A stretch of DNA of 25,324 bases from the NCBI GenBank assembly GCA_015694865.1, contig GCA_015694865.1_3933.1. One strand, written 5' to 3'. The translations under genes and the position numbers were made by a program. Positions within the stretch are counted from its first letter, which is position 1, and each line of letters opens with the position of its first letter. Source of the stretch: a phage. Under the pieces are notes generated by a model. It did not search any database. It was not told the DNA's origin and saw only the letters and a list, made by a program, of their open reading frames with translations. Below are positions 8,809 to 22,339 of this stretch, piece by piece.

Positions 8809-8815
8809 CTAGCTA

Positions 8816-10432: not shown

Positions 10433-10438
10433 ATAGAA

Positions 10439-10639: not shown

Positions 10640-10675
10640 TATGTTTTCTCCAAATAATTAACCATGTTTCCCCTT

Positions 10676-10699
10676 AAAAAAGACGGCACAGAGACCGTC
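10676..10699 (-). terminator. rho-independent terminator (minus strand)
   Basis: Plus-strand aaaaaa-GACGG-cacagaga-CCGTC, i.e. on the minus strand a GC hairpin followed by TTTTTT. Confidence 0.55.
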
Positions 10700-10764
10700 A
10701 AGGAGAAACCACAATGTACGTCAGAGACATACTGTATAAGTCTTCCTATAAAGTATAACTCTGT

Positions 10765-10824
10765 AAAAAAGCCCTGTCTAAAAATACTCTTCGGTAGCGA
10801 AAGGAAGAATACTTATAGCAGGGC
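10765..10824 (-). terminator. stem-loop plus U-tract downstream of tRNA-Cys (terminator or processing structure)
   Basis: GCCCTG (10771-10776) pairs with CAGGGC (10819-10824); minus strand has TTTTTT directly after the stem; an inner ttcg/cgaa hairpin sits in the large loop. Confidence 0.4.
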
Positions 10825-10861
10825 ATTATTATTATTTTAATTGAGAGAGAGTAAAATAACT

Positions 10862-10937
10862 TGGAGAATCCGAAGGGACTCGAACCCTTATAAACCTGTT
10901 TTGCAGACAGGCACATAGCCATTTCTGTCACGGATTC
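10862..10937 (-). tRNA. tRNA-Cys (anticodon GCA)
   Basis: 76 nt on reverse complement; acceptor GAATCCG/CGGATTC, T-arm AAGGG-TTCGAGT-CCCTT, anticodon loop CTGCAAA, CCA encoded. Confidence 0.8.
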
Positions 10938-10941
10938 AAAT

Positions 10942-11034
10942 TGGAGGAAGATACCAGACTTGAACTGGTACACCGATTTCTCAGCTACTGGCAGTTTAGC
11001 AAACTGCTCCCTTACCTTTTAGGGTTAATCTTCC
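10942..11034 (-). tRNA. tRNA-Ser (anticodon GCT), class II long variable arm
   Basis: 93 nt; acceptor GGAAGAT/ATCTTCC, anticodon stem GCAGT/ACTGC with loop TTGCTAA, about 21-nt variable arm, T-arm ACCAG-TTCAAGT-CTGGT, CCA encoded. Confidence 0.75.
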
Positions 11035-11035
11035 A

Positions 11036-11770
11036 TTATTTCTGTAATGCGTTCTTCATTTCTGGTGTTGCAATAGTGTCAATTACACCAGTTTTACAGG
11101 CATCATCAAACCAGTCTGGTAAGATACCTGCTAAGAACCCATTGATATTCGTTTTAAGGTACTCTGCAATAAGGGCAGCTTCTTCTTCAATCATCTGCAC
11201 AACTTCATCTGCATAAGCTGTAATCTTTGAGATACCTTCATTAATCTTACTGACAGCTTGGTTAGCTAAATCAGAAACAGTATCAAGACCCTTGTCAATA
11301 GCGTCTTGTAAGTCACTTAATACATCGTTAACACTCTCTAGTGTACTGTTAATCGTATCAATAGCTTTTTGACCATATTCTGTAGCAACACCCATAATAC
11401 CACTGAACGGTGTACAACCAACTTGTTCTCCTGCTGCACCCATAACATTGGAATATCCCTTTGCTACCTGCATACGTGATGAAAACTCATCAATAGATTT
11501 TTGACCGTAGTCTGTCAGGGTCTTAGTAGTTGCTGTAGTGCTTGTAAGGCTTGTTGTAAAGCTGTTTAGAAGGATTGTTGTAAGTCCAGCAGCAACAAGT
11601 TTCTCCTGCATTGTAGGGTCTGTTACAGAACTAATAGAGCTTACAAGTGATGTAGAAGCAGCTACGGTTCCACCGAGAACTGCTGCACCAGTAATAAGTG
11701 GGTTAGAAAACCCTTTACCGGTTTTTAAGAGATTAAAAATCTCCTTACCTTGTTCTGTCATCTCTTTCAT
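11036..11770 (-). CDS. hypothetical protein with N-terminal hydrophobic segment and long helical C-terminal region, embedded in the tRNA array
   Basis: ORF 11036..11833 trimmed to the internal Met at 11770 (AAAGG RBS) because the longer start would overlap tRNA-Phe; hydrophobic stretch LITGAAVLGGTVAASTSLVSSI. Confidence 0.5.
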   Translation of the reverse strand: MKEMTEQGKEIFNLLKTGKGFSNPLITGAAVLGGTVAASTSLVSSISSVTDPTMQEKLVAAGLTTILLNSFTTSLTSTTATTKTLTDYGQKSIDEFSSRMQVAKGYSNVMGAAGEQVGCTPFSGIMGVATEYGQKAIDTINSTLESVNDVLSDLQDAIDKGLDTVSDLANQAVSKINEGISKITAYADEVVQMIEEEAALIAEYLKTNINGFLAGILPDWFDDACKTGVIDTIATPEMKNALQK

Positions 11771-11786
11771 TAAGCACCTTTGAAAT

Positions 11787-11863
11787 TGGTAGTCCAGTGG
11801 GATTTGAACCCTCTTCTCATGTTTTTCAGACACGCGCTTTAACCATATAAGCTACTTGGACTA
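11787..11863 (-). tRNA. tRNA-Phe (anticodon GAA), acceptor/D-arm register ambiguous
   Basis: T-arm GAGGG-TTCAAAT-CCCAC, anticodon stem CGTGT/ACATG with loop CTGAAAA; the acceptor can pair as TAGTCCA/TGGACTA or a shifted register, so the ends are +/-2 nt. Confidence 0.55.
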
Positions 11864-11868
11864 TAAAT

Positions 11869-11944
11869 TGGGGTGACCTACGGGATTTGAACCCGTATAG
11901 ACCATGTTCACAGCATGGGTCATTACCATTTATGATAAGGCCAC
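11869..11944 (-). tRNA. tRNA-His (anticodon GTG)
   Basis: 76 nt; acceptor GTGGCCT/AGGTCAC, D-stem TCAT/ATGA, anticodon stem CCATG/CATGG with loop CTGTGAA, T-arm ACGGG-TTCAAAT-CCCGT, discriminator C, CCA encoded. Confidence 0.8.
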
Positions 11945-11975
11945 ATTTAAGGACTCTCGTAAGAACCCTTAGAAG

Positions 11976-12051
11976 TGGCAGCGGCATAAGGATTTGAACC
12001 TTAATAGGACAGCTTCAGAGACTGTTGCATTGCCAGTTATGCTATACCGCT
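11976..12051 (-). tRNA. tRNA-Gln (anticodon CTG)
   Basis: 76 nt; acceptor AGCGGTA/TGCCGCT, D-stem GCAT/ATGC, anticodon loop CTCTGAA, T-arm TAAGG-TTCAAAT-CCTTA, CCA encoded. Confidence 0.75.
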
Positions 12052-12056
12052 AAATT

Positions 12057-12135
12057 TGGTACTCCATATCGGATTCGAACCGATACATAACACAGATTTT
12101 AAGTCTGGCCTCTCTGCCAATTGGAGTAATGGAGC
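12057..12135 (-). tRNA. tRNA with Leu-type anticodon TAA but short variable region (atypical; isotype uncertain)
   Basis: 79 nt; acceptor GCTCCAT/ATGGAGT, T-arm ATCGG-TTCGAAT-CCGAT, best anticodon loop CTTAAAA on a 4-bp stem; no class II long arm. Confidence 0.5.
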
Positions 12136-12137
12136 AT

Positions 12138-12213
12138 TGGTGGGGGATGTTGGAATTGAACCAACTTCTTCGATTTCAAAGACCGAGGTTTTAACCTTGT
12201 AAACTAATCCCCT
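12138..12213 (-). tRNA. tRNA-Gln (anticodon TTG)
   Basis: 76 nt; T-arm GTTGG-TTCAATT-CCAAC, D-stem GTTT/AAAC, anticodon stem TCGGT/ATCGA with loop CTTTGAA; position 1-72 is an A-C mismatch. Confidence 0.7.
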
Positions 12214-12221
12214 TTAAATCT

Positions 12222-12779
12222 TTACTTTCTCAGTGGATGAATAAAGAATGCCAACATAACTCTTTCCCTTGAGAATGCTCTTTCTTCTGGGACAACACTT
12301 TTTAGTTTCCATCCAATATAAATTCTCCAGTAAAACTGTTTACCAAAGACTTTAATTGATGGGATAAAAGCGAATAATCCCCAAGCATTACTGTTCCACA
12401 TTAGGAGATAACCTGTCTGATTATCTTCAGGGTCAGAACTTACGTTGATATTACCTTTCCACTTAGTAACATCTTTTACATCTCTTCCTAATACATGGTA
12501 AGAGAAGTTATAGGCTTTGTTTCTCCAGAGCCATCCGACTCTCTGCATGTAGACACCCAGCTTACCAATCTTTCTAATCTTAGCCCATCGTTCGATATGA
12601 CCTTCGTCACCATCAATTGGGTTGTCATATGTCTCCATCCATCTAAATCCGAAAGGTAAGTGGCCTTTCTTCTCACTGTAAAATGGAACTACGAAAGGTG
12701 CTAAGATAACTGCTAAGGTTGCTGCTAATGGTTCTAGCAAAGCTAGGAAAATCCATGAAGCATATTTTAAATATCTCAT
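12222..12779 (-). CDS. hypothetical membrane-anchored protein embedded in the tRNA array
   Basis: 185 aa ORF; N-terminal hydrophobic helix (ASWIFLALLEPLAATLAVILAPFVVPF), Trp-rich soluble part; coupled to the upstream small ORF. Confidence 0.5.
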   Translation of the reverse strand: MRYLKYASWIFLALLEPLAATLAVILAPFVVPFYSEKKGHLPFGFRWMETYDNPIDGDEGHIERWAKIRKIGKLGVYMQRVGWLWRNKAYNFSYHVLGRDVKDVTKWKGNINVSSDPEDNQTGYLLMWNSNAWGLFAFIPSIKVFGKQFYWRIYIGWKLKSVVPEERAFSRERVMLAFFIHPLRK

Positions 12780-13018
12780 CGTCTAATCCTTGTAAGGAGA
12801 TAAATGTTATTATTCGTTTCTAAACCTTCTGGTAAAACTGTCTCAAAAATAACACTCTTTAGCTGTCTACCACCAAAACAATCACGTATAAATCTTTCTA
12901 CTCTAGCGGGGTCACATAAGTACCCTACTTTTAAGAAAATGTGGTGTTCAACACCAATGACCCTGACAAACTCAATATTCTCACAGTTTTCATGTTCAAC
13001 TACTGTTAATGTTTGCAT
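12776..13018 (-). CDS. hypothetical small protein (coupled to 12222..12779)
   Basis: 80 aa ORF; its stop overlaps the start of the downstream ORF (ATGA). Confidence 0.4.
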   Translation of the reverse strand: MQTLTVVEHENCENIEFVRVIGVEHHIFLKVGYLCDPARVERFIRDCFGGRQLKSVIFETVLPEGLETNNNIYLLTRIRR

Positions 13019-13035
13019 AGTATCACCTTTTTATC

Positions 13036-13111
13036 TGGCGCAGGATAAGGGATTCGAACCCCTATTAACAGCTTCGTAGACTGTTGCTCTATCCATTTGA
13101 ACTAATCCTGC
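13036..13111 (-). tRNA. tRNA-Arg (anticodon ACG)
   Basis: 76 nt; acceptor GCAGGAT/ATCCTGC, D-stem GTTC/GAGC, anticodon loop CTACGAA, T-arm AGGGG-TTCGAAT-CCCTT, CCA encoded. Confidence 0.8.
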
Positions 13112-13116
13112 AAAAT

Positions 13117-13194
13117 TGGTGTTCCAAGACGGATTCGAACCGTCACTAATACAAGGTTTGAGCTTACATCCTCTGCCAATTGGGATACTGGAAC
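13117..13194 (-). tRNA. tRNA with Leu-type anticodon CAA but short variable region (atypical; isotype uncertain)
   Basis: 78 nt; acceptor GTTCCAG/TTGGAAC, T-arm GACGG-TTCGAAT-CCGTC, D-loop AATTGGCAGAG shared with the 12057..12135 gene, anticodon loop CTCAAAC. Confidence 0.5.
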
Positions 13195-13195
13195 A

Positions 13196-13269
13196 TGGTA
13201 CTCACTAAAGGACTTGAACCTTTTCTTCATCTTGTAAGGGTGATGTTTTACCATATAAACTAAGCGAGT
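13196..13269 (-). tRNA. tRNA-Val (anticodon TAC)
   Basis: 74 nt; acceptor ACTCGCT/AGTGAGT, D-stem GTTT/AAAC, anticodon loop CTTACAA, T-arm AAAGG-TTCAAGT-CCTTT, CCA encoded; short variable loop. Confidence 0.65.
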
Positions 13270-13364
13270 GTGAAAGAGGTCTGAAGTTGTGCCGCTAACT
13301 CAACTCCGTGGAATTTGTTACGGTCTTCAGTTGACACCAGCGGTCTTTCACTTGACCTCTGAAT

Positions 13365-13441
13365 TGGTGCTGCTCACAGGACTCGAACCCGCATTTCCAT
13401 CCTTACAAGGGATGTGTAATAGCCAATTATACGAAAGCAGC
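13365..13441 (-). tRNA. tRNA-Thr (anticodon TGT)
   Basis: 77 nt; acceptor GCTGCTT/GAGCAGC, anticodon stem CATCC/GGATG with loop CTTGTAA, T-arm GCGGG-TTCGAGT-CCTGT, CCA encoded. Confidence 0.75.
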
Positions 13442-13448
13442 ATTAATT

Positions 13449-13524
13449 TGGAGCATCCAGAGGGAATCGAACCCTCAACCTCAGTTTGGAAGACTGTAAT
13501 TTTCCCGTTTAAACTATGGATGCA
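13449..13524 (-). tRNA. tRNA-Gly (anticodon TCC)
   Basis: 76 nt; acceptor GCATCCA/TGGATGC, anticodon loop CTTCCAA, T-arm GAGGG-TTCGATT-CCCTC, CCA encoded. Confidence 0.7.
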
Positions 13525-13529
13525 CTAAT

Positions 13530-13605
13530 TGGTGGAGAAGCAGGGAATTGAACCCTGTACTTAAGTTTGCAAAACTTATGTTTTAACCATGTAAACTACA
13601 TCCCC
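13530..13605 (-). tRNA. tRNA-Ala (anticodon TGC)
   Basis: 76 nt; G3-U70 wobble pair in the acceptor stem (Ala identity element), anticodon stem TAAGT/ACTTA with loop TTTGCAA, T-arm CAGGG-TTCAATT-CCCTG, CCA encoded. Confidence 0.75.
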
Positions 13606-13611
13606 AATGTA

Positions 13612-13687
13612 TGGTACAGGTGGAGGGAATTGAACCCATCGTCTTACTGATTAAGAGTCAGCCGCATAACCATTTTGCTACACCTGC
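13612..13687 (-). tRNA. tRNA-Lys (anticodon CTT)
   Basis: 76 nt; acceptor GCAGGTG/CACCTGT, anticodon stem GCTGA/TCAGT with loop CTCTTAA, T-loop TTCAATT, CCA encoded. Confidence 0.7.
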
Positions 13688-13694
13688 ATTAATT

Positions 13695-13772
13695 TGGTAG
13701 GAGACAAGGGATTCGAACCCTCAAACACCAACTTCTAAGGATGGTAGGTTTACCAATTACCGTCAATCTCCC
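13695..13772 (-). tRNA. tRNA with Leu-type anticodon TAG but short variable region (atypical; isotype uncertain)
   Basis: 78 nt; acceptor GGGAGAT/GTCTCCT, T-arm GAGGG-TTCGAAT-CCCTT, anticodon loop CTTAGAA on stem CCATC/GTTGG; D-arm poorly paired. Confidence 0.45.
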
Positions 13773-14028
13773 ATTAAATCTTTTTAGAGAACTTCTAAGA
13801 ACCTAAGCAACAAGGTTCCACAACAAGCTGTAATAACCTTAGAAGCCCTCTAAAAAGACCTAAAAAGGTCTTTGCATAGTCTTGTTTAATCCGGTGACTA
13901 GAACCTTTGGAGAGCTTGATATTATCTCTTCTCCGTGACACCTACTAGGTGCTTTACTGTGCTTGTACGACAATACACGAGGGATACCAAAGCAACATCC
14001 GAATGAAGCTTGGCTTTAAACCTTATTA

Positions 14029-14118
14029 GGCGGTAAGTAAAGGAGTCGAACCCTCACCGTATCTCTACAGTGGCAACTGTTTTCAAGACAGTTTGGCTAC
14101 CATTAGCCGCTACCTACC
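14029..14118 (-). tRNA. tRNA-Ser (anticodon TGA), class II
   Basis: About 88 nt; acceptor GGTAGGT/ACTTACC, D-stem GGC/GCC, anticodon stem ACTGT/ACAGT with loop CTTGAAA, long variable arm, T-loop TTCGACT; only CC of CCA encoded. Confidence 0.7.
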
Positions 14119-14131
14119 CCTAATAAGACTT

Positions 14132-14214
14132 TGGCATGGGACGGAGGAGTTGAACCCCTTTGAAACGGTTTTGGAGGCCGTTGCTCATGCCTTAGAGTCT
14201 TAACATCGTCCCAT
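14132..14214 (-). tRNA. tRNA-Trp-like (anticodon CCA) with abnormally long D-region; possibly a tRNA-like ncRNA
   Basis: 83 nt; perfect 7-bp acceptor ATGGGAC/GTCCCAT, T-loop TTCAACT, anticodon arm ACGGC-CTCCAAA-ACCGT, but about 16 nt between the D-stem strands. Confidence 0.5.
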
Positions 14215-14356
14215 ATTATAATTCGAAGCTTACCGTATTATCTCAACACTGTAAAGCCCCTTCTCAGATTATTTACATGTTCTGGAAAACATGAGATACA
14301 GACCACCTCCCTACAGGAAGACCCGCTTAGGTCGTCTAAGTAATCTGCTAACTAAT

Positions 14357-14433
14357 TGGCACACCCTACAGGATTCGAACCTGTAACTAACGATTTAGAA
14401 GACCGTTGCTCTATCCAATTGAACTAAGGGTGC
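14357..14433 (-). tRNA. tRNA-Arg (anticodon TCT)
   Basis: 77 nt; acceptor GCACCCT/AGGGTGT, D-stem GTTC/GAGC, anticodon stem ACGGT/ATCGT with loop CTTCTAA, T-arm ACAGG-TTCGAAT-CCTGT, CCA encoded. Confidence 0.8.
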
Positions 14434-14636
14434 ATTAATCTTTAAAGACTCTCTTAGAAAGCCCTTAAAGATGCCCACCTTATTAATCATACCGTGGGCT
14501 AGTACGCCAAATTCTTTGATGAGGGATTGGAAGACCTCACTGGTGTTTAGCCTATCAAGCTACTGCCAGAAAAACATTGTCGTTTGCATTTATTTTAAAT
14601 TTGCAAAATAGACGCTACGCAACGAAAACTAAGGTT

Positions 14637-14665
14637 ACTATAAAGTAGTCACATCTCAATGTCAA
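14637..14665 (-). promoter_or_regulatory. sigma70-like promoter on minus strand (TTGACA-17 bp-TATAGT)
   Basis: Plus-strand tgtcaa at 14660-14665 and actata at 14637-14642 give, on the minus strand, -35 TTGACA, a 17-nt spacer and -10 TATAGT, pointing at tRNA-Arg(TCT) and downstream tRNAs. Confidence 0.55.
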
Positions 14666-14680
14666 CAACTTTATTGAAAT

Positions 14681-14756
14681 TGGTACTGGTAGGTGGAATC
14701 GAACCACCGATGTTCCCTTATCAGGGGAGTGTTATAACCTTCTTAACTATACCAGC
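14681..14756 (-). tRNA. tRNA-Ile (anticodon GAT)
   Basis: 76 nt; acceptor GCTGGTA/TACCAGT, D-stem GTTA/TAAC, anticodon loop CTGATAA, T-arm GGTGG-TTCGATT-CCACC, CCA encoded. Confidence 0.75.
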
Positions 14757-14757
14757 T

Positions 14758-14834
14758 TGGAGGTTCAGATGGGATTCGAACCCATCGCCTGTCAGATTAA
14801 AAGTCTGCCGCATCACCATTCTGCTACACTTCCA
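14758..14834 (-). tRNA. tRNA-Lys-like (anticodon TTT) with poorly paired acceptor stem (possible pseudo-tRNA)
   Basis: Paralogous in sequence to the 13612..13687 tRNA-Lys; good T-arm ATGGG-TTCGAAT-CCCAT and anticodon arm GCAGA-CTTTTAA-TCTGA, but acceptor strands GGAAGTG vs CTGAACC pair at only 3 of 7 positions. Confidence 0.45.
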
Positions 14835-14837
14835 TTA

Positions 14838-14981
14838 AATTATCTTTGTAGATAAGCTACCCAGACTTGCTTAATGTCTGTAGCGATGTGCCTTTTTGGG
14901 TTTAAATCTAGAATTTACCCTTTCACCCTTTGTGGTCGCATACTCACAGGTAAGCTTAATAACTTATCTACAAAGATAATT
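14838..14981. repeat. 19-bp perfect inverted repeat (14838-14856 / 14963-14981) flanking a 106-bp non-coding segment
   Basis: aattatctttgtagataag at 14838-14856 is the exact reverse complement of cttatctacaaagataatt at 14963-14981. Confidence 0.7.
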
Positions 14982-15030
14982 ACCAGACCGTTGTTTATCA
15001 TCTTAAGTGCTACCATTACACCAACTCGAC

Positions 15031-15080
15031 ATCTGCCGAGTGAAGGAATCGAACCTTCGCCTTTTCTTTACCGGAGAAAT
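15031..15080 (-). ncRNA. tRNA-like fragment (T-arm plus 3' acceptor strand without a pairing 5' strand)
   Basis: Reverse complement gives TTTCT-CCGGTAA-AGAAA, then GAAGG-TTCGATT-CCTTC-ACTCGGC; no complementary 5' acceptor strand or recognisable D-arm within about 80 nt upstream. Confidence 0.35.
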
Positions 15081-15120
15081 AGATTGTTTAAGTTTTGCTG
15101 AATACGGTCTTCTGCAAAAT

Positions 15121-15197
15121 TGGAGGCGGGTGCAGGAGTCGAACCTACCGATACCATGCTAATGAGACATGTGAGACGCCCTTTCTCTATACCCGCA
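15121..15197 (-). tRNA. tRNA-Met (anticodon CAT; elongator, initiator or Ile2 not distinguishable)
   Basis: 77 nt; T-arm GTAGG-TTCGACT-CCTGC, anticodon stem CATGT/GCATG with loop CTCATTA, acceptor ACCCGCC with a 1-72 T-C mismatch in the best register, CCA encoded. Confidence 0.6.
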
Positions 15198-15287
15198 ATT
15201 CTCAATGACCAGACCAAATATCTTCTTTGTCCGATTTCGTGTCAGATGAGTAGATTAAGTTTGCTGTAATTGGTCTTCTGTCAAAAC

Positions 15288-15365
15288 TGGCGTTCCAGAA
15301 GGGATTTGAACCCTCAGATATCCACTTTGAAAGAGTGGTGACTTTACCATTTTGTCTACTGGAAC
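15288..15365 (-). tRNA. tRNA-Glu (anticodon TTC)
   Basis: 78 nt; acceptor GTTCCAG/CTGGAAC, anticodon stem CCACT/AGTGG with loop CTTTCAA, T-arm GAGGG-TTCAAAT-CCCTT, CCA encoded. Confidence 0.7.
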
Positions 15366-15375
15366 ATTAATTTGT

Positions 15376-15449
15376 TCTCTGTTGGAGGACTTGAACCTCC
15401 GGCCTTACCGCCCCAAACGGAACGCTCTACCAAGCTGAGCTAAACAGAG
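15376..15449 (-). tRNA. tRNA-Pro (anticodon TGG)
   Basis: 74 nt without CCA; C1-G72 pair, D-arm TAGCTCAGCTTGGTAGAGC, anticodon loop TTTGGGG with G37, T-arm GGAGG-TTCAAGT-CCTCC. Confidence 0.75.
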
Positions 15450-15567
15450 ATAAACTTTTCAAACTCTATGTAACCACTTTAACATTATTTTTTAGTGGTT
15501 GTCAAGAACTTTTTTAAAATATTTTTCAGTATCTTAGAAAAGCTCTCATTTCGTTTCTATGTAGAAC

Positions 15568-15596
15568 ATATTAAAGGGTATCAAACACATTGTCAA
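15568..15596 (-). promoter_or_regulatory. sigma70-like promoter on minus strand (TTGACA-17 bp-TAATAT) upstream of the tRNA array
   Basis: Plus-strand tgtcaa at 15591-15596 and atatta at 15568-15573 give, on the minus strand, -35 TTGACA, a 17-nt spacer and -10 TAATAT; the -35 sits in the loop of a 9-bp inverted repeat (aaagggtat/ataccctt). Confidence 0.5.
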
Positions 15597-15614
15597 TACC
15601 CTTTTTAAAACTTT

Positions 15615-17029
15615 TTACCAGATGTAACGGTCAATCATTACTGCTTTGAGCATTACACTGATTGGGTCAAACTTCTCACCACCAAGCAGAGCTTTTAAAG
15701 TAGCTGGAGAAAAACCAGATACCATTGCTACACCGTTATCCTTAACAGACACTTCGCAAGTACCATTACGGTTTGCTAAGTACCAGAATACCAGTTGAGG
15801 CATTTCGTATCCAGCTTTTTTGTACTTACTCTGAATTGCTTCAAAGTTTGTACGACCGTTAGCTCCATCAACCTGATTGAACTCCATATCGGAGAAGATG
15901 ATAAGCTTACTTGCATGTCTTTCTTAGTCAAGTTGTTTCTCTTACCTACCTCAAGAATCCGGTCAAAAGCTGCTTGTAAGTTAGTTGAGCCATATTCAAC
16001 ATGTCGCATCACCTGACGATGACGGTTTCGTAAATCACCACTCAGTTCGATGAAGTGAGGGTTTGTTGAATAAACCATTAACTCATCCTTAAAGCAACCT
16101 GTATTGCGTTCTGCTACATACAAGGCAAGGGATACACCAATATCAAGGGCAGTGATTGAACCAAGATTCACCCAAGACATTGAGCTTGAAACATCAGTCA
16201 TACACAAGATGTTTTCACCTTCTGCCATCCAGTTTGGTAGTGCTTTCCACTGCTCATTGGCAACATCTGCATTACCATGCTTGATAGACTTAATCACATC
16301 GTATGGGTAAACAGCACCAGCGTTAATCTTAGTCTCACCTTTTGATAAGGACTCAATGTAAGCTTTGTAACGTTCTCCATCCTTACGGTTAAACAGTTTT
16401 TGGTAACGTGCAGCAGCAAGTGAAGGAGTCTTACTGTAGTCAATCTTACCAAACTCATTAGCAGAGATTTTTTGCTCAACTGTATCAGATAGTGCAGACA
16501 ACAGTGTGCGGTACTCTTTCTCACTCAAGTTGGCAAACTTGCAGAAACGTTTTACAAACTGCTTATGACGTGGTTTGACTCGTGGTAACCACTTAGCCGC
16601 CAAACCTGCTGTTGCAGGTTCTAGTAATGCTGCTTCTAGATGTTTGAAGGCATCTGTCTCGAAACGAGTACCTACGAAGATTTTGAAGTCATCAAAACGA
16701 CCAAGTTCTGCAATCTTATCCATAATGCGAAGAACCTGCGTAGGCTCTAAAACTTTGTCTTCAATCGCTTGAAGTAAAACAGTTCTGAAGGCTTTACGCT
16801 CACCCATACCTTCTCGTACATCTCGCATATGAAGCAAAATACGAACTGCAACATCAACATCCTCACGCAAAGCTTTGTAGAACAGGTCTGGTAAGATTTC
16901 TACGTTGCTACGGCTTGAACCAGCAGCTTTGTAAAAGTCTACAAGAGCAGACATTGATGAAGTATGGTTTACAGCACCATTTTCAGTTCGACCTGCATGA
17001 AGGTGCGCATGTTTAAATAATTCGCTCAT
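15615..17029 (-). CDS. Ro60-like vWA-domain protein, interrupted by an apparent frameshift near 15885-15926
   Basis: Two overlapping minus-strand ORFs (15776..17029 and 15615..15887) in different frames; MIDAS-like TDVSSSM motif in the first; the second frame reads ...HASKLIIFSDMEFNQ..., typical of the end of a vWA fold. Ro60-like (DUF2828-type) assignment is from memory. Confidence 0.6.
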
Positions 17030-17110
17030 ATTTTACTCTCTTCTCTCATTTGTTTGTTGATGTGACAGACTTTAGAGCAACTTTGTAGAGTCTGTCAACA
17101 CCTTTTAAAA

Positions 17111-17482
17111 TTATTTTTTGAGAGTCGCTACAGCAGAGAACGTTGGTTTGTTATCTGTCTGAGACTGACCACCATTATCAGGGGTCTTCTTAGTGTCTGC
17201 TGCAATCGCTTTCATCTCACCTGCTGAGTGAGTCATGATGGTTTTACCAGCCTCCATCATCGACTTCAGGTTTACATCGTCAGTCGTCAAACCGAACTCT
17301 GCAAGCTTAGCAGCATCCCTTGTAACAACCGCCTCAAACAACTTTGCAGCAAACTCAGCAGAATTATCAATGGTCAGTTGAGCTTTTACAAGTGAGCTTT
17401 TGTTACGAGAGCCTTTTGGTCTTCCAGATGGGTTTCCAGACTGGCCTTTTTTAAACTGGCCTTTGTTTGTTCTGTTTTTCAT
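17111..17482 (-). CDS. small basic protein with GNPSGRPKG motif (candidate DNA-binding protein or small terminase-like protein)
   Basis: 123 aa ORF; N-terminal K/R-rich region with GNPSGRPKG; first gene of the minus-strand operon. Confidence 0.5.
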   Translation of the reverse strand: MKNRTNKGQFKKGQSGNPSGRPKGSRNKSSLVKAQLTIDNSAEFAAKLFEAVVTRDAAKLAEFGLTTDDVNLKSMMEAGKTIMTHSAGEMKAIAADTKKTPDNGGQSQTDNKPTFSAVATLKK

Positions 17483-17657
17483 TGGTATGCCTCTTATAAG
17501 ACCTCTTAAAAGGCTTTTAAGATAAAAGATAGATATCCAGAAAGATATCTGTTTAAATAGCCTTTTTAGAGGAACCTTTTAAGTTATCTTCTAAGTATTT
17601 AGAAGCCTACACCTTGTCAAGTACTTTGTCAACAACTTTTTTAACTTGCAATAGTTC

Positions 17658-17686
17658 TTGACTTGTTGTATGGATTACTGTACCAT
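17658..17686 (+). promoter_or_regulatory. candidate sigma70-like promoter for the rightward gene block (TTGACT-17 bp-TACCAT)
   Basis: TTGACT at 17658-17663, 17-nt spacer, TACCAT at 17681-17686, about 45 nt upstream of the first plus-strand ATG; weak -10. Confidence 0.3.
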
Positions 17687-17731
17687 CTTACTTAAAGCTG
17701 TAGGTCTGCCTTGTTATACAAAGGAGACTTA

Positions 17732-17893
17732 ATGAGAAAATCAAATAAACCGAAGAAAGGTAAGAATACCAATCACTGTAAGGAATCAAAAAGGGTAGAG
17801 TTAATCTACTATTCATCCTCTGAAATTGGTCTGTACCTGTTCTTTCAAAATTACAGAAGACAAGAGGATTATCTATGTGTAGTTCCCAATTAG
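17732..17893 (+). CDS. small lysine-rich hypothetical protein
   Basis: ORF 17711..17893 trimmed to the ATG at 17732, which has an AAGGAG RBS 5 nt upstream. Confidence 0.45.
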   Translation: MRKSNKPKKGKNTNHCKESKRVELIYYSSSEIGLYLFFQNYRRQEDYLCVVPN

Positions 17894-18108
17894 AAATCGC
17901 AGATATTATAGATTTATATCAAACTGCAAAGAGTCATGGCTATATAACCTCAATTGGAAAGAATAGTCACTATGATGCTTTGACTGGAATGTATTTCAGG
18001 GCAATGGCTCAATCTAGTGAACAACACTTAATGGTTTCTTCCAGTGAGTTTACTTCGTTTCTCTATTGCAGCAAAATTATAAACCGCAGGAGAACTGAAA
18101 AATGTTAA
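17875..18108 (+). CDS. hypothetical protein
   Basis: 77 aa ORF with AAGAGG RBS upstream; overlaps the previous ORF by 19 nt. Confidence 0.45.
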   Translation: MCSSQLEIADIIDLYQTAKSHGYITSIGKNSHYDALTGMYFRAMAQSSEQHLMVSSSEFTSFLYCSKIINRRRTEKC

Positions 18109-18692
18109 CAGTAAGTTTTAATTACAATAGTGATGGCTCTGTATCAATTAATTCACCATATGCAAATGACCTGCTTAAAGAGCTAGTTAATCAGTGTGAT
18201 AGAGGTCTTCACTATGTTCAAAATTCTTTTAAACAGAAGACTATTGCTAATAACTTGATGCGTGTAACAGTAACGGCATCGAATCAAAATTATGACTTTG
18301 ATAGTGAAAGTCCGTACTCATTAGTTGCGCTTGGAGAGAGCAGCCAATTCAAACTTGTTTGCCACGACTCAGAAACATTCCTTAAGGTATTTTCAAACCT
18401 TATCCATAATAATAAGTACAGCTACGTTGATGGTAGTGTAAACTTCTATCCAGCAAATTATACATGTTTGTTGGTTGATAACATGAGAAAGAGTAAGCAA
18501 GAGCCTACAGAAATTTCATTTGATGTGAACTCTAGTCCAGACGCAGAAACAAGTAAGAACTTTGATATGAGTTACGCATTGTCGCTCAGTAAGAAATCCG
18601 AGTTCATTGATTATGTCAATGGATTTGATTTTAAGTTTGATGAGAGTATGAATCTTAAAAAACTTAAAAACCTACTTAAGACCAAAGCTTAA
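18102..18692 (+). CDS. hypothetical protein
   Basis: 196 aa ORF; GGAG RBS; start overlaps the previous stop. Confidence 0.55.
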   Translation: MLTVSFNYNSDGSVSINSPYANDLLKELVNQCDRGLHYVQNSFKQKTIANNLMRVTVTASNQNYDFDSESPYSLVALGESSQFKLVCHDSETFLKVFSNLIHNNKYSYVDGSVNFYPANYTCLLVDNMRKSKQEPTEISFDVNSSPDAETSKNFDMSYALSLSKKSEFIDYVNGFDFKFDESMNLKKLKNLLKTKA

Positions 18693-18739
18693 GTGTGAAT
18701 AGGGGCATCAGTCCCTTTAACTATTTATAAGGATATTTA

Positions 18740-19111
18740 ATGAAAGCTAAGAGTGCAAAAGACTTTTATTGCTTACTACAATCCTATATCAATTCCGTGC
18801 AAAATGGTGAAAGGTACAACCTTAATGATGTTATCCCAACACCTTTGACATGGAGACTCAGTAAATGGCCTGAAGAAGATATTACACCAACAAGCAAACA
18901 ACACACCTACAAACCTGAAATCAATATTCCAGACTCTGAGAACCTATTATATCCAATGTTCCATATTGTTGGTCTTGGGAGATTCCTTATGGATATTCAG
19001 TATGTAATTGGTAAAGGTTATAAGGTTAAAGGCATTGTTGTTGGTGATGTATCTCCACACCACAAAGGTTATTTTAGACTAAACGCACATTTAGAGGCTA
19101 AAAAGAAATGA
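18740..19111 (+). CDS. hypothetical protein, paralog of the N-terminal region of 19108..19740
   Basis: 123 aa; AAGGA RBS; shares motifs with the next ORF (W.EEDI / WPEADI, YKP, DSE..LY / SDELLY, MDIQY / MDLQY). Confidence 0.55.
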   Translation: MKAKSAKDFYCLLQSYINSVQNGERYNLNDVIPTPLTWRLSKWPEEDITPTSKQHTYKPEINIPDSENLLYPMFHIVGLGRFLMDIQYVIGKGYKVKGIVVGDVSPHHKGYFRLNAHLEAKKK

Positions 19112-19740
19112 TTAAAGCAAAGACTTACCCAGACTTTAAAGAGTTTGTGAAGGGCTTCATTGCAAACGTAAAGGTTGGTAAGAGATATGATTTTAGAACA
19201 TATCAAGAGGCTATTTTACCACTTACCTATAGTTCATATTGGCCTGAAGCTGATATTGCAGAAGTTGAGAAGTTTGACTACAAACCAGACTACAAAGTTC
19301 CATTTAGTGATGAATTGCTTTACAGTGTTGGTGCACAGATGAGAACTGCTGATTTCTTCATGGATTTGCAGTATGCAATCATCAATGGTAAAGATGTTGA
19401 CACAATTTACTGTGAATGGTTGGCAAGAGTTAAGCCGTTCTCAATGTTGAATGCTAAGTTGAAAGATGTCATCACACCACCAACAATCACTCAGCAACCA
19501 ACCAATCAAACAGTAAATGAAGGGGGTACACTTACCCTAAGCGTTATTGCAACTAATGCCACTGGTTATCAATGGAAAAAGGATGGTGAGGACATCCCTA
19601 GTGCCAATTCTGCAACTTACACCAAAGAAGGTGCAACCGCTGCTGATGCAGGAAGCTACACCTGTGTAGTTACTGGTGCAGGTGGCTCTGTAACATCTAA
19701 TGCAGCAACAGTTACTGTTAACCCAGCAGGGGAGGCATAA
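19108..19740 (+). CDS. hypothetical protein with C-terminal Ig-like domain
   Basis: 210 aa; ATGA overlap with the previous gene; C-terminus ...TLTLSVIATNATGYQWKKDGEDIPSANSATYTKEGATAADAGSYTCVVTGAGGSVTSNAATVTV... has the Y-x-C pattern of Ig-like domains. Confidence 0.6.
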   Translation: MIKAKTYPDFKEFVKGFIANVKVGKRYDFRTYQEAILPLTYSSYWPEADIAEVEKFDYKPDYKVPFSDELLYSVGAQMRTADFFMDLQYAIINGKDVDTIYCEWLARVKPFSMLNAKLKDVITPPTITQQPTNQTVNEGGTLTLSVIATNATGYQWKKDGEDIPSANSATYTKEGATAADAGSYTCVVTGAGGSVTSNAATVTVNPAGEA

Positions 19741-20204
19741 TGCAACTCTCAAGAAAAGGTTTAGAAGCTATTAAGTTCTTTGAAGGTCTTAAGCTTGAGG
19801 CTTACGAAGATTCTGCTGGAATCCCCACAATTGGGTATGGGACAATTCGTATTGGTGGGAAGCCTGTTAAGATGGGTATGAAGATTACCGCTGAACAAGC
19901 TGAACAGTATCTTCTTGCAGATGTTGAAAAGTTCGTTGCAGCAGTGAACAAAGCCATCAAGGTTCCAACTTCTCAGAATGAGTTTGATGCACTTGTAAGT
20001 GAAACATACAACATTGGTATCACAGCTATGCAGGACTCTACATTTATCAAGCGCCACAATGCTGGTAATAAGGTCGGTTGTGCAGAAGCTATGCAGTGGT
20101 GGAACAAGGTTACAGTAAAAGGTAAGAAGGTCACTTCAAACGGCCTGAAAAACAGACGTAGAATGGAAGCTGACATTTATCTTGACAGTGTATATCCAAA
20201 GTAA
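19740..20204 (+). CDS. endolysin, GH24 (T4 lysozyme-like) family
   Basis: 154 aa; N-terminal FEGLKLEAYEDSAGIPTIGYG carries the Glu…Asp…Thr catalytic arrangement; GGGGAGG RBS; terminator immediately downstream. Confidence 0.85.
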   Translation: MQLSRKGLEAIKFFEGLKLEAYEDSAGIPTIGYGTIRIGGKPVKMGMKITAEQAEQYLLADVEKFVAAVNKAIKVPTSQNEFDALVSETYNIGITAMQDSTFIKRHNAGNKVGCAEAMQWWNKVTVKGKKVTSNGLKNRRRMEADIYLDSVYPK

Positions 20205-20213
20205 TATCTTCAT

Positions 20214-20240
20214 AGGCTCCTTCGGGAGCCTTTTTTATTT
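20214..20240 (+). terminator. rho-independent terminator after the endolysin gene
   Basis: AGGCTCC-ttcg-GGAGCCT hairpin followed by TTTTTTATTTT. Confidence 0.8.
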
Positions 20241-20255
20241 TCTAAGGAGAAAACT

Positions 20256-20654
20256 ATGAAACTTTGGGCTAGTGACTTTGGAACTTTTAAGTACACTCGT
20301 AATGGCTCGCTTGTACGCATTGTCGGAAACAATGTGGTTTCAAGAGGTGACAAGGTGTATACACGGTTTACTGTAGAGCTTGTTGAGCTGTCGCCTATTG
20401 AGTCTGTGAACAATGGTCTGTTCAAGTTTGAGACTTACAATGTCAATGAGCATGGACAATTTAACCCTCTTGGCGAAAGTGGACTTGATATTATTTCAGA
20501 ACACCCGTTGACAAAAGAGCAACTTGCAGGTTACTATAAAACTGTTCTGGAAAGGCAGTTAGCAACACATGAACAAGAAGCTAACTACCACCTACATCAT
20601 TGCGAAACTTTAAGAGCAAAAATCGAACAAGCAGAGAGAGGTTTTTATGAATAA
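20256..20654 (+). CDS. hypothetical protein
   Basis: 132 aa ORF; AAGGAG RBS. Confidence 0.55.
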   Translation: MKLWASDFGTFKYTRNGSLVRIVGNNVVSRGDKVYTRFTVELVELSPIESVNNGLFKFETYNVNEHGQFNPLGESGLDIISEHPLTKEQLAGYYKTVLERQLATHEQEANYHLHHCETLRAKIEQAERGFYE

Positions 20655-21045
20655 AGATGTTAGAGATATCCAAGTAAAAGTTGACACGTTTGGCCATGAT
20701 GGTCGAGAAGATATAGGTTTTGCCGATGCAGTAATATACAAGTGCAACGGAGATTTATTCCTTCAGTTTACAGGGTCTGGAAGCACACTTCATCGAGTAC
20801 GAGATGATGAAGATGGTTGTCCTGTATTTGGTTGGTTTGACAGGGAGTTCCCTCTTTACGCAATCCACTACCCAGATGGTGGTGAAGATTGGACAACCCA
20901 ATCAATCTTTGATGAGCTTAATGGTGTTCCAGTTGAGCAAGAAGAGCGAGAGCCTGTTGAACTTACCTTCACCTTTATCAAAGAAGAGAAAGTAGGTGAC
21001 TTGTCAGTAACTGAAGCAATTCAAGTTTCACAGGTGATTCGTTAA
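20647..21045 (+). CDS. hypothetical protein
   Basis: 132 aa ORF; overlaps the previous stop; GAGAGG RBS. Confidence 0.55.
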   Translation: MNKDVRDIQVKVDTFGHDGREDIGFADAVIYKCNGDLFLQFTGSGSTLHRVRDDEDGCPVFGWFDREFPLYAIHYPDGGEDWTTQSIFDELNGVPVEQEEREPVELTFTFIKEEKVGDLSVTEAIQVSQVIR

Positions 21046-22256: not shown

Positions 22257-22281
22257 CCGAGTATACAACACTGATTATGAT

Positions 22282-22312
22282 GGGAGCTATCGAGAGGTAG
22301 TTCCCTTTTTAG
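22282..22312 (+). terminator. candidate rho-independent terminator
   Basis: GGGAGCTA-tcgagagg-TAGTTCCC stem (one G-U pair) followed by TTTTT. Confidence 0.5.
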
Positions 22313-22339
22313 TTTCTAGATAAGAGACATGGTAAAAGA

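What the first reader, a model, noticed from the sequence alone, without database searches (positions are those of the whole stretch)
13796..17607. Recurring motif TTAGAAG(C)C / CTTCTAAG in non-coding regions
Close variants occur at about 13796, 13843, 14452, 15535 and 17590-17607 (the last as a palindrome cttctaa-gtat-ttagaag), and again in the terminal repeat region near 25150. All copies are in intergenic or spacer DNA. Such recurrence suggests a binding site for a phage regulator or a phage-specific promoter element.
Basis: seen in the sequence. Interest (0 to 1): 0.45.

Follow-up and report, generated by a model that had tools for sequence, protein, structure and literature searches.

The report
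Phased CT-N4-AG boxes in Felix-O1-like phage
The recurring TTAGAAG/CTTCTAAG word is real, but it is only one spelling of an 8-bp box (CT, any four bases, AG) that Felix-O1-like phages carry at twice the expected density across the whole genome, spaced about one DNA turn apart, which suggests an undescribed protein-DNA packing or recognition code rather than a promoter.

Summary
The window is part of a Felixounavirus genome: structural genes, a 22-tRNA cluster, a divergent control region, and the start of the noncoding region that holds the terminal repeat. TTAGAAG is enriched (16 vs 6.7 expected; 9 copies in the 11% that is noncoding). The copies are heterogeneous. 13796 and 13843 are the two arms of a conserved 22-bp RNA hairpin 7 nt upstream of tRNA-Leu. 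14452 and 15535 are length variants, not the motif. One arm of the 17590-17607 palindrome is a near-private SNP. The copies near 25063-25152 belong to a 12-bp-phased iteron array beside the terminal repeat. What unites the true copies is the frame CT-N4-AG. This dyad is the top-enriched one in noncoding DNA (3.3x). It is 2x enriched in coding DNA beyond synonymous-codon shuffles. It needs all four bases and exactly four spacer bases, is phased at about 11.3 bp, and reaches about 40/kb around the terminal repeat. It is shared by three Ounavirinae genera and absent from T5, rV5 and E. coli. Most likely these boxes are contact points for an unidentified phage protein that lines one face of the DNA. 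A promoter element is not supported.

The parts
13779..13858 (-). Long AU-rich RNA hairpin ending 7 nt upstream of tRNA-Leu(UAG). The 22-bp stem pairs 13779-13800 with 13837-13858.
   Evidence: Inverted repeat I1 has 26-nt arms. The spacer MFE has z = -3.6. In 10 distinct relatives 97.7% of cells are paired, 8 pairs change on one side only through G.U/A-U, and one pair shows a compensatory UA->GC change. G.U pairs exist only on the minus strand.
14438..14472 (-). 12-bp hairpin ending 4 nt upstream of tRNA-Arg(UCU). CTTTAAAG at 14440 is a true box.
   Evidence: Inverted repeat I5. Relatives show only structure-preserving stem changes (C-G to U.G, G.U to G-C) and a loop indel, and the hairpin is kept where the downstream tRNA differs.
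15534..15542 (+). It lies between two sigma70-like promoters upstream of tRNA-Pro, does not fit CT-N4-AG, and is probably a chance resemblance.
   Evidence: The word is lost (CTAAG to CTGAA) in diverged relatives L023-L027.
17588..17605 (.). Palindrome CTTCTAAG-TAT-TTAGAAG. The box at 17588-17595 is conserved in all relatives. The arm at 17599-17605 exists only here and in two related loci, because of a C where most relatives have A (CTTATAA).
   Evidence: Alignment of 12 distinct relatives. The site sits just downstream of tandem minus-strand TTGACA boxes at 17632-17627 and 17620-17615.
17493..17583 (-). Almost invariant ~90-nt inverted repeat between the leftward promoter and the DUF5681 gene. 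It is built from the boxes CTTATAAG 17493, CTTAAAAG 17505, CTTTTAAG 17514, CTTTTTAG 17562 and CTTTTAAG 17576, and folds as a long 5'-UTR hairpin on the minus strand.
   Evidence: MFE -34.3 kcal/mol, z = -4.0. The region is near-invariant in relatives that are about 80% identical overall, and one pair follows the path C-G to U.G to U-A. At 17493 the inner four bases vary (TATA/TAGA/TAAA/TCAT) while CT..AG is always kept.
24858..25324 (.). Start of the ~1.65-kb noncoding region that contains the direct terminal repeat in relatives. It holds 16 CT-N4-AG boxes in 467 nt. TTCT(T)AA iterons lie at 24963 and 24975, and at 25063, 25075, 25087 and 25099, each run at exactly 12-bp spacing. CTTAGAAG lies at 25145-25152.
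   Evidence: The D4 terminal repeat was mapped by BLAST. Box density is 36-42/kb in the repeat and its flanks. Equivalent arrays, including CTTCTAAG x4, occur in phiEa21-4 and Michonne.
11968..11975 (+). CTTAGAAG box abutting the 3' end of tRNA-Gln(CUG), in the 31-nt spacer before tRNA-His. A second box, CTCGTAAG, lies 12 bp away at 11956.
23375..23404 (+). Three boxes at 11-bp spacing (CTTGATAG 23375, CTTTGTAG 23386, CTTAGAAG 23397) just upstream of the gene starting at 23413. The last box overlaps the ribosome-binding site.
   Evidence: The same chain is present in garuso at 51638-51667.
1..25324 (.). Window-wide excess of CT-N4-AG: 261 sites against 130 expected. This comprises 53 against 14.9 expected in noncoding DNA and 191 against 96 +/- 8 in genes. 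Site-to-site distances peak at 11-12, 21-24 and 32-36 bp.

Best explanation
CTTCTAAG and CTTAGAAG are two spellings of an 8-bp box, C-T-(any 4)-A-G, which reads the same way on both strands.

Shown:
- Felix-O1-like phages (Ounavirinae) carry this box at about twice the expected density everywhere, about 3.3x in noncoding DNA, and about 40 per kb in the noncoding region around the direct terminal repeat.
- All four fixed bases and the exact 4-bp gap are required.
- Boxes sit preferentially 11-12, 22-24 and 33-36 bp apart, and avoid half-turn offsets.
- CT dinucleotides as a whole show an ~11.5-bp periodicity.

Inferred:
- The boxes are contact points for an abundant, lineage-specific phage protein (or protein complex).
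- That protein would bind with two-fold symmetry and polymerise along one face of the helix. It would nucleate at the terminal-repeat region and at the divergent control region, and spread weakly over the rest of the genome.
- It would thus resemble phage chromatin or a terminase/initiator wrap.

Because the frame is its own reverse complement, these arrays also fold, in the leftward (minus-strand) transcripts, into long AU-rich hairpins: a 22-bp stem before tRNA-Leu, a 12-bp stem before tRNA-Arg, and a ~90-nt 5'-UTR hairpin. These probably act as RNA processing or stability elements. RNase III-type cleavage is the best guess for the 22-bp stem.
For: - Unbiased dyad scan of a complete relative (garuso): CT-N4-AG is the top dyad in noncoding DNA (174 sites vs 53 expected, z = 22) and 662 vs 343 in coding DNA (z = 17). 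Gaps N0-N3 and N5-N8 are not enriched.
- Synonymous-codon shuffles give 340 +/- 15 against 665 observed, with all three codon phases enriched. The window's own genes give 191 against 96 +/- 8.
- Changing any one of C, T, A or G abolishes the excess. Flanks and interior bases are irrelevant.
- Phasing at about 11.25 bp is seen in garuso, Michonne, phiEa21-4 and the window, in coding-only pairs as well, and not in T5. CT autocorrelation peaks at 11.5 bp.
- The signal is lineage-specific: 2.0x in Mooglevirus and Kolesnikvirus, and absent from T5, rV5, E. coli K-12 and a distant DUF5681-bearing contig.
- There is a hot spot of 36-43 boxes per kb in the terminal repeat and its flanks.
- In noncoding boxes the fixed positions are 0.905 identical across relatives, against 0.835 for the interior and 0.830 for the flanks. 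At 17493 the interior varies while the frame is kept.
Against: - No binding protein is identified. Pfam, PHROG and NCBIfam scans of the window's proteins, and an AF2 model of DUF5681, gave nothing usable.
- Individual boxes in coding DNA are not better conserved than control dyads in relatives that are about 80% identical. If there is selection, it acts on density and not on position.
- A sequence-dependent DNA-shape code without a specific reader would give the same statistics.
- The hairpin substitutions favour an RNA-level constraint for the local copies, which could be the whole story for them.
- All evidence is computational.
Confidence: 0.5

Rival explanations
1. RNA-only reading. The local copies matter solely as base-paired arms or loops of leader and 5'-UTR hairpins in the leftward transcripts (tRNA precursor processing, mRNA stability). 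The genome-wide CT-N4-AG excess is an unrelated background property.
For: Stem substitutions are wobble-compatible only on the minus strand, and there is one compensatory pair. A C-G to U.G to U-A path is seen in the 5'-UTR hairpin. Fold z-scores are -3.6 and -4.0. In diverged relatives the 5' arm word becomes TTGTTAAG, so the box is lost while pairing is kept.
Against: It does not explain the copies beside the terminal repeat, the 12-bp direct arrays, or the conservation of the CT..AG frame with a variable interior at the box at 17493, which lies at the base of the hairpin. It also does not explain why the hairpins are assembled from the very words that are over-represented genome-wide.
Confidence: 0.22
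2. DNA-shape code without a sequence-specific reader. The ~11.5-bp alternation of CT and AG steps gives the genome an intrinsic curvature or torsional preference that helps spooling in the capsid, supercoil handling, or non-specific wrapping by a histone-like protein.
For: All CT dinucleotides, not only those in boxes, are periodic at 11.5 bp. CT to AG peaks at distance 6 and AG to CT at 5-6. Density is uniform over early and late genes. Individual coding sites turn over.
Against: The strict need for all four bases and for exactly N4, with no graded tolerance, looks like base-specific recognition rather than a shape preference. The 4-fold hot spot at the terminal repeat and the conserved arrays in the control region point to specific sites.
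Confidence: 0.15
3. One reading: TTAGAAG(C)C is the operator of a classical phage regulator or a phage-specific (middle or late) promoter element.
For: The word is enriched in noncoding DNA. One copy (17588-17595) lies just downstream of tandem TTGACA boxes and is conserved. The phage encodes a Cro/C1-type HTH protein elsewhere in the genome. The temporal control of Felix O1 is unknown (PMC3185647).
Against: There is no consistent distance to -35/-10 boxes, start codons or tRNA 5' ends. No noncoding copy occurs in the other ~60 kb of a complete relative, including its many early intergenic regions, apart from one at position 278. The palindrome is not conserved. The variants at 14452 and 15535 differ in length, and the one at 15535 is not conserved.
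Confidence: 0.06
4. Mutational or repair bias, or a restriction-modification-related target: a sequence-specific enzyme (methyltransferase, nickase or very-short-patch-type repair) creates or protects CT-N4-AG.
For: The motif has a bipartite, four-base, gap-exact form typical of enzyme recognition sites. Individual sites turn over while density is maintained.
Against: Such processes do not predict helical phasing, depletion at out-of-phase distances, or a hot spot at the genome end. Recognition sites of restriction systems are normally avoided, not enriched. No methyltransferase or nickase was seen in the annotations read.
Confidence: 0.05
5. Decayed tRNA pieces or chance. CTTAGAA and CTTCTAA are the anticodon loops of tRNA-Leu(UAG) and tRNA-Arg(UCU), so the spacer copies could be tRNA remnants or low-complexity coincidence.
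For: Two exact hits are anticodon loops. The tRNA cluster shows deletion scars and tRNA-like fragments.
Against: ARAGORN and Rfam find no tRNA features around the spacer copies. Shuffles exclude chance. Copies also occur far from the tRNA cluster.
Confidence: 0.02

Closest known systems
Bacillus phage phi29 protein p6 nucleoprotein complex (from established knowledge, not tested here)
   Same: A phage genome-wide signal with a period longer than 10.5 bp (12 bp for p6, about 11.3-11.5 bp here). Preferred nucleation regions lie near the genome ends. Proposed roles are in replication initiation and the early/late switch.
   Different: p6 reads a bendability pattern, not a base-specific box. No p6 homologue was seen. 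The genome here is a DTR myovirus of enterobacteria, not a protein-primed podovirus. Binding here is inferred only.
Arrays of short boxes bound by ribbon-helix-helix or Cox-type proteins (MetJ 8-bp metboxes AGACGTCT, P22 Arc TAGA subsites, TP228 ParG, pSM19035 omega, P2 Cox boxes) (from established knowledge)
   Same: Short (4-9 bp), often two-fold symmetric boxes are repeated in direct and inverted arrays about one helical turn apart at control regions, with cooperative filament-like binding. The 8-bp dyad frame resembles a metbox with the specified bases at its ends.
   Different: Those arrays are confined to a few operators or centromeres. Here the box is also 2x enriched inside genes across 86 kb. 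No RHH or Cox-like protein was identified.
Short repeat arrays flanking the T7 terminal repetition (SRL/SRR) and pac-site arrays bound by small terminase (SPP1 pacL/pacR) (recalled from memory, a lead only)
   Same: Phased short direct repeats lie immediately beside a direct terminal repeat, as with the TTCT(T)AA iterons at 25063-25106 at 12-bp spacing and the box-dense DTR flanks.
   Different: T7 and SPP1 repeats are local. No small terminase is recognised in Felix-O1-like phages (PMC3185647). The function of the arrays here is untested.
RNase III processing hairpins in phage polycistronic RNAs (T7 early mRNA sites; the site upstream of the first tRNA in the T4 tRNA precursor) (from established knowledge)
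   Same: A ~22-bp, largely perfect dsRNA stem on the transcribed strand lies between a long spacer and the next tRNA, and its pairing is conserved across genera.
   Different: Cleavage was not shown. The stem is AU-rich and assembled from CT-N4-AG words. The 12-bp stem before tRNA-Arg is too short for a canonical RNase III substrate.
SeqA-GATC clusters and other genome-wide over-represented words (Chi, KOPS, uptake sequences)
   Same: A short word is enriched genome-wide including in genes. It is maintained as a density rather than at fixed positions, and for SeqA, pairs lie on the same helical face.
   Different: Chi, KOPS and uptake sequences are asymmetric and oriented. GATC is contiguous and marked by methylation. 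CT-N4-AG is bipartite, symmetric, confined to one phage subfamily and absent from the host.

Membership tests
Promoter element (sigma70-type or phage-specific) | Fixed position relative to -35/-10 hexamers, transcription start or gene start | tested here: not met
   Copies lie at about +2 of a predicted promoter (17588), about 170 nt downstream of another (14454), between two promoters (15534), after a tRNA 3' end (11968), in hairpin arms (13792, 13838), and far from any gene (25145).
Promoter element (sigma70-type or phage-specific) | Confined to intergenic DNA upstream of transcription units throughout the genome | tested here: not met
   In complete garuso, all noncoding TTAGAAG copies but one lie in the 50.3-64.2 kb segment homologous to this window. 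None occurs in the many early intergenic regions. The CT-N4-AG family is 2x enriched inside genes.
Palindromic operator of a dimeric regulator | Dyad-symmetric site conserved in relatives | tested here: not met
   The 7-4-7 palindrome at 17588-17605 exists only in the window and two related loci. Most relatives read CTTATAA in the second arm. The 8-bp CT-N4-AG frame itself is dyad-symmetric and conserved.
Palindromic operator of a dimeric regulator | A cognate DNA-binding protein | not testable with these tools
   The only recognisable regulator is a 99-aa HTH_3 protein outside the window. Nothing links it to the box.
Iteron / pac-type arrays beside a terminal repeat | Tandem short direct repeats in helical phase | tested here: met
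   TTCT(T)AA lies at 25063, 25075, 25087 and 25099, and at 24963 and 24975, all at 12-bp spacing. Box chains spaced 9-14 bp occur across the noncoding region of garuso and D4. CTTCTAAG pairs lie 11 bp apart in phiEa21-4.
Iteron / pac-type arrays beside a terminal repeat | Location at or next to the physical genome end | tested here: met
   Phage D4 (termini set with PhageTerm, PMC11737134) has a 581-bp DTR inside the homologous noncoding region. The window end maps 135 bp from it. The termini of this particular phage were not determined.
Iteron / pac-type arrays beside a terminal repeat | Binding by initiator or terminase and a role in replication or packaging | not testable with these tools
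   No small terminase or initiator is identified. The DUF5681 protein has a basic GRP-containing N-terminus but no fold match.
RNase III-type processing hairpin | About two turns of mostly perfect dsRNA on the transcribed strand | tested here: met
   A 22-bp stem, 13779-13800 with 13837-13858, on the strand of the tRNAs. Pairing includes G.U pairs that exist only on that strand.
RNase III-type processing hairpin | Pairing conserved through substitutions | tested here: met
   97.7% of 220 cells are paired. 8 pairs vary on one side and 1 on both sides. Slid controls give 40-63% paired. Only 6 of 500 shuffles reach the observed pairing, so support is moderate.
RNase III-type processing hairpin | Cleavage within the stem in vivo | not testable with these tools
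   No transcript-end data for any Felixounavirus was found in the library.
Rho-independent terminator | G+C-rich stem followed by a U run | tested here: not met
   The stems are AU-rich and are followed by AUUUAAU or UAAU and then a tRNA. The terminator scan does not call them.
phi29 p6-type genome-wide nucleoprotein signal | Periodic signal over the whole genome with nucleation near the ends | tested here: met
   A period of 11.25-11.5 bp in four genomes, including coding-only pairs. Density reaches about 40/kb at the DTR region against 9-10/kb elsewhere. This is a sequence signal only.
phi29 p6-type genome-wide nucleoprotein signal | A p6-like or other histone-like protein | tested here: inconclusive
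   Pfam, PHROGs and NCBIfam gave no DNA-binding assignment for the proteins of this window that were scanned. The other ~90 proteins of the genome were not scanned.
tRNA or pseudo-tRNA remnant | Cloverleaf features around the word | tested here: not met
   ARAGORN and Rfam (E <= 1) find tRNA features only at the two anticodon-loop copies, not at the spacer copies.

The most novel reading that the evidence does not exclude
Ounavirinae genomes are written in a helically phased CT/AG code: CT-N4-AG boxes about every 11.3 bp, at 2x density even within genes through synonymous codon choice. The code would be read by an as yet unidentified phage protein that coats or wraps the viral chromosome. It would nucleate at the terminal-repeat region, distinguish phage from host DNA, and couple replication, packaging and transcription timing. 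This would be a sequence-specific form of phage chromatin with no described counterpart.
Probability: 0.35. Interest if true: 0.85.

Novelty: new variant of a known kind. Interest (0 to 1): 0.66.

Why it matters
Felix O1 is a classic typing and biocontrol phage whose temporal regulation, packaging recognition and small terminase are all unknown (PMC3185647). A four-base, gap-exact, helically phased box would be an unusual example of a whole viral genome shaped by a DNA-level code on top of the protein code. It doubles in density across the genome, peaks at the terminal repeat, and is shared by three genera while absent from the host. It gives a concrete bait sequence for finding the missing DNA-recognition protein. 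It also bears on synonymous recoding and engineering of these therapeutic phages, and suggests a way for the phage to mark self DNA. The leader hairpins give testable processing sites for the phage tRNA cluster.

Tried and rejected
- Rfam (E <= 1) on 10.6-18 kb found only tRNAs and spurious weak hits. One was a miRNA-precursor hit that merely flags the long hairpin.
- The promoter/terminator scan found promoter-like sites no more often than in shuffles (30 vs 34). It gave no link to the word.
- Literature searches for CTNNNNAG, Felix O1 motifs, Felixounavirus transcriptomes and Bas63 promoters found nothing on this motif.
- A positional-conservation test of coding boxes against CT-Nk-AG controls showed no excess. 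Site-by-site purifying selection in genes was therefore dropped.
- The search for a candidate reader protein produced no assignment:
  - Pfam, PHROGs and NCBIfam scans of window proteins and of the HTH_3 regulator.
  - A PDB sequence search of DUF5681.
  - A homologue search.
  - An AF2 model of DUF5681 (pLDDT 70, helical with a disordered basic N-terminus) and a Foldseek search of the PDB (best E = 3.4).
- A codon-usage artefact was rejected by synonymous shuffles and by the lack of enrichment at N1 and N7, which share the codon phase.
- A composition artefact was rejected by gap specificity and single-base variants.
- A general enterobacterial or phage property was rejected by the T5, rV5 and E. 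coli controls.
- The idea that leader hairpins mimic the anticodon loop of the downstream tRNA was set aside. The hairpins persist where the downstream tRNA differs.
- NC_015294 (PAK_P1) was not in the collection.

Full report
**What the window is.** Megablast places the region in Felixounavirus (Felix-O1-like myoviruses), at 96-97% identity to many E. coli, Salmonella and Shigella phages.
- Minus strand: the structural and terminase genes (1-10639), 22 tRNA genes (10862-15450), a Ro60-like/vWFA gene (15615-17029, frameshifted here), and a DUF5681 gene (17111-17482).
- 17483-17710 is a divergent intergenic region.
- Plus-strand genes run to 24857.
- From 24858 the window enters a ~1.65-kb noncoding region.

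**Checking the observation.**
- TTAGAAG occurs 16 times against 6.74 +/- 2.44 expected, and 0 of 100 shuffles reach 16.
- Nine copies lie in the 2,895 nt of noncoding DNA, five in 20.7 kb of coding DNA, and two in tRNAs.
- Within noncoding DNA the 8-mer CTTAGAAG/CTTCTAAG is among the two most enriched words (6 vs 0.29).
- The copies at 13796, 13843, 17590-17607 and 25150 are as described.
- Those at 14452 and 15535 are TTAGAAAG and TTAGAAAAG.
- The two tRNA copies are the anticodon loops of tRNA-Leu(UAG) (CUUAGAA) and tRNA-Arg(UCU) (CUUCUAA).

**The copies are heterogeneous.**

*13792-13799 and 13838-13845.*
- They are the two arms of a 26-nt inverted repeat. On the minus strand, the strand of the tRNAs, it folds into a long hairpin ending 7 nt before tRNA-Leu.
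- Across 10 distinct relatives, 97.7% of the 220 stem cells pair. Eight pairs change on one side only, through G.U/A-U, and one pair shows UA to GC on both sides. Slid controls pair 40-63%.
- The G.U pairs would be A.C mismatches on the plus strand, so the constraint is on the RNA.
- In the diverged group the 5' arm reads TTGTTAAG. The word is therefore not conserved, but the pairing is.

*14454-14461.* This variant sits in the loop of a 12-bp hairpin 4 nt before tRNA-Arg. Its stem changes are again structure-preserving, and it persists where the downstream tRNA differs.

*15534.* This variant lies between two sigma70-like promoters and is lost in diverged relatives.

*17588-17605.* The box at 17588-17595 is invariant. 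The arm at 17599-17605 results from a C found only in this window and two related loci. Most relatives read CTTATAA.

*25063, 25087 and 25146.* The first two belong to a run of TTCT(T)AA iterons at 25063, 25075, 25087 and 25099, spaced exactly 12 bp, with a further pair at 24963 and 24975. 25146 is part of the CTTAGAAG box at 25145-25152, 46 bp beyond that run.

**The unifying feature.**
- The other enriched noncoding 8-mers (CTTTTTAG, CTTAAAAG, CTTATAAG, CTTTGTAG, CTATATAG) all have the form CT-N4-AG. I tested this frame directly.
- In the window's noncoding DNA, CTNNNNAG occurs 53 times against 14.9 expected (z = 10), and CTWWWWAG 20 times against 2.6. The N3 and N5 versions and swapped controls are not enriched.
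- An unbiased scan of all dinucleotide pairs at gaps 0-8 was run on a complete close relative (garuso, 85.8 kb).
  - CT-N4-AG ranks first in noncoding DNA (174 sites vs 53, z = 22).
  - It is among the top dyads in coding DNA (662 vs 343, z = 17).
  - Every other gap is at or below expectation.
- Synonymous-codon shuffles that preserve every protein and each gene's codon usage give 340 +/- 15 against 665 observed. All three codon phases are enriched. For the window's own genes the figures are 191 against 96 +/- 8.
- Replacing any one of the four bases removes the excess (ratios 0.87-1.38 against 2.08). Flanking and interior bases make little difference.
- Of the nine noncoding TTAGAAG copies, six are CTTAGAAG boxes. 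Two more overlap boxes in another register: CTAAATAG at 25066 and CTAACAAG at 25090.

**Phasing.**
- Distances between boxes peak at 11-12, 21-24 and 32-36 bp, and fall below random expectation at 15-20 and 28-31 bp.
- This holds for garuso (38 and 41 pairs at 11 and 12 bp against 8.5 expected), for coding-only pairs, and for Michonne, phiEa21-4 and the window. The best period is 11.25-11.5 bp. T5 shows nothing.
- All CT dinucleotides share an ~11.5-bp autocorrelation. CT to AG peaks at distance 6 and AG to CT at 5-6.

**Distribution and range.**
- Density is 5-15 per kb along the genome, except for 43, 23 and 21 per kb at 49-52 kb of garuso. That stretch is the noncoding region whose first 467 nt end this window.
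- Phage D4, whose termini were set with PhageTerm (PMC11737134), carries a 581-bp direct terminal repeat (1-581 = 88859-89439) inside that region. The window end corresponds to D4 position 716, 135 bp from the repeat.
- Boxes reach 36-42 per kb in the repeat and both flanks.
- The 2x excess is also present in Mooglevirus Michonne (481 vs 236, z = 16) and Kolesnikvirus phiEa21-4 (159 vs 77, z = 11). The end-region of phiEa21-4 holds CTTCTAAG four times, plus about ten TTCTAA variants at 11-12-bp spacing.
- The excess is absent from T5, rV5, E. coli K-12 and a distant contig.

**Conservation.**
- In noncoding boxes the four fixed positions are 0.905 identical in relatives that are about 80% identical overall. 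The interior is 0.835 and the flanks 0.830.
- The region 17493-17600, containing six boxes, is almost invariant.
- At 17493 the interior is TATA, TAGA, TAAA or TCAT in different genera, while CT..AG is always kept.
- In coding DNA, individual boxes are no better conserved than control dyads. Density is maintained while sites turn over.

**Interpretation.**

*Shown:* a gap-exact, four-base, dyad-symmetric box with a genome-wide excess, helical phasing, a hot spot at the terminal repeat, and restriction to one phage subfamily.

*Inferred:* base-specific recognition by a two-fold symmetric protein that lines one face of the helix. A period above 10.5 bp is what wrapped or torsionally constrained DNA shows.
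- The nearest functional analogue is phi29 p6.
- The nearest architectural analogues are box arrays of ribbon-helix-helix or Cox-type proteins, and repeats beside terminal repetitions.
- These comparisons rest on established knowledge and were not tested here.

*RNA hairpins.* Because the frame is its own reverse complement, inverted arrays of boxes are also RNA hairpins. The substitution patterns show that the hairpins at 13779-13858 and 17493-17583 are themselves constrained on the minus-strand RNA. Processing of the tRNA precursor (RNase III-type for the 22-bp stem) and 5'-UTR control are the likely roles. These roles are unproven.

*Reader protein.* I could not identify it.

*What remains possible or unlikely.* A DNA-shape code without a specific reader, and an RNA-only reading of the local copies, both remain possible. 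A classical operator or promoter, an enzyme-target or mutational bias, and tRNA remnants or chance are all unlikely, for the reasons given under rivals.

**Verdict.** It is wrong in its specifics, because this is not one operator or a promoter element. The finding leads to a broader and apparently undescribed property of Felix-O1-like genomes. No report of it was found in the searchable literature.

Noticed in passing
window 15615-17029 (-): The Ro60/TROVE-vWFA-like gene ('RNA-binding protein' in RefSeq TP1) is split by a frameshift near 15,890 into ORFs 15776-17029 and 15615-15887. It is intact (471 aa) in relatives. A preprint (10.1101/2024.10.10.617714) reports the Bas63 orthologue gp130 as Ro60-like and as a counter to the ppl defence. 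It suggests that some neighbouring 'tRNAs' are Y RNAs.
   Followed up: partly
window 14138-14212 (-) and 15041-15091 (-): tRNA-like fragments are missed by ARAGORN (weak Rfam tRNA hits, E about 0.5). Relatives carry tRNA-Asn, tRNA-Tyr and tRNA-Asp, and in some an HNH endonuclease gene, where this window has the 290-nt gap 14831-15120. The tRNA cluster is therefore a deletion and recombination hot spot. The ~250-nt spacers may encode small stable RNAs, as annotated in the T5 tRNA region.
   Followed up: partly
window 15085-15120 and 15250-15287 (-): A ~40-nt repeated trailer follows tRNA-Met and tRNA-Glu: TTTTG(A)CAGAAGACC(G/A)..CAGCAAA(A)CTTAA, a small hairpin. It accounts for the enriched noncoding k-mers GAAGACC and AGACCGT.
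   Followed up: partly
window 17098, 15596, 15505, 14665 (minus-strand -35 starts): Several promoter-like sites have a perfect TTGACA -35 box but a weak -10 (TAAAGT twice, TAATAT, TATAGT). The site at 17098 is embedded in a 12-nt inverted repeat (17063-17097).
   Followed up: no
whole window and relatives: CTAG (CT-N0-AG) is strongly depleted (41 vs 106 expected in the window). TG-N1-TG / CA-N1-CA is strongly enriched in coding DNA, and also in T5, so this is probably codon-related.
   Followed up: no
garuso 48952-50603; D4 1-1032 and 88527-89439; window 24858-25324: The terminal-repeat region is a mosaic of several iteron classes, all kept in the CT-N4-AG frame even when the core shifts register. 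Examples are CTTGTTAG vs CTGTTAAG, CTTAACAG vs CTAACAAG, CTATATAG and TTCTAA. Orientation switches between the two halves of the region.
   Followed up: partly
window 17111-17482 (-): The DUF5681 protein has an invariant N-terminal FKKGQSGNPxGRPKGSRNK segment (basic, with an AT-hook-like GRP core) followed by helices. It is the first gene downstream of the box-rich control region. That makes it a speculative candidate for a DNA-binding or small-terminase-like role, with no supporting fold match.
   Followed up: partly
window 13853-13875: A small hairpin, AAAGACC-loop-GGTCTTT, lies immediately upstream (in the RNA) of the long tRNA-Leu leader hairpin. Its stem is conserved and its loop is variable in relatives (TTTTT, TAA, AAA).
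   Followed up: no
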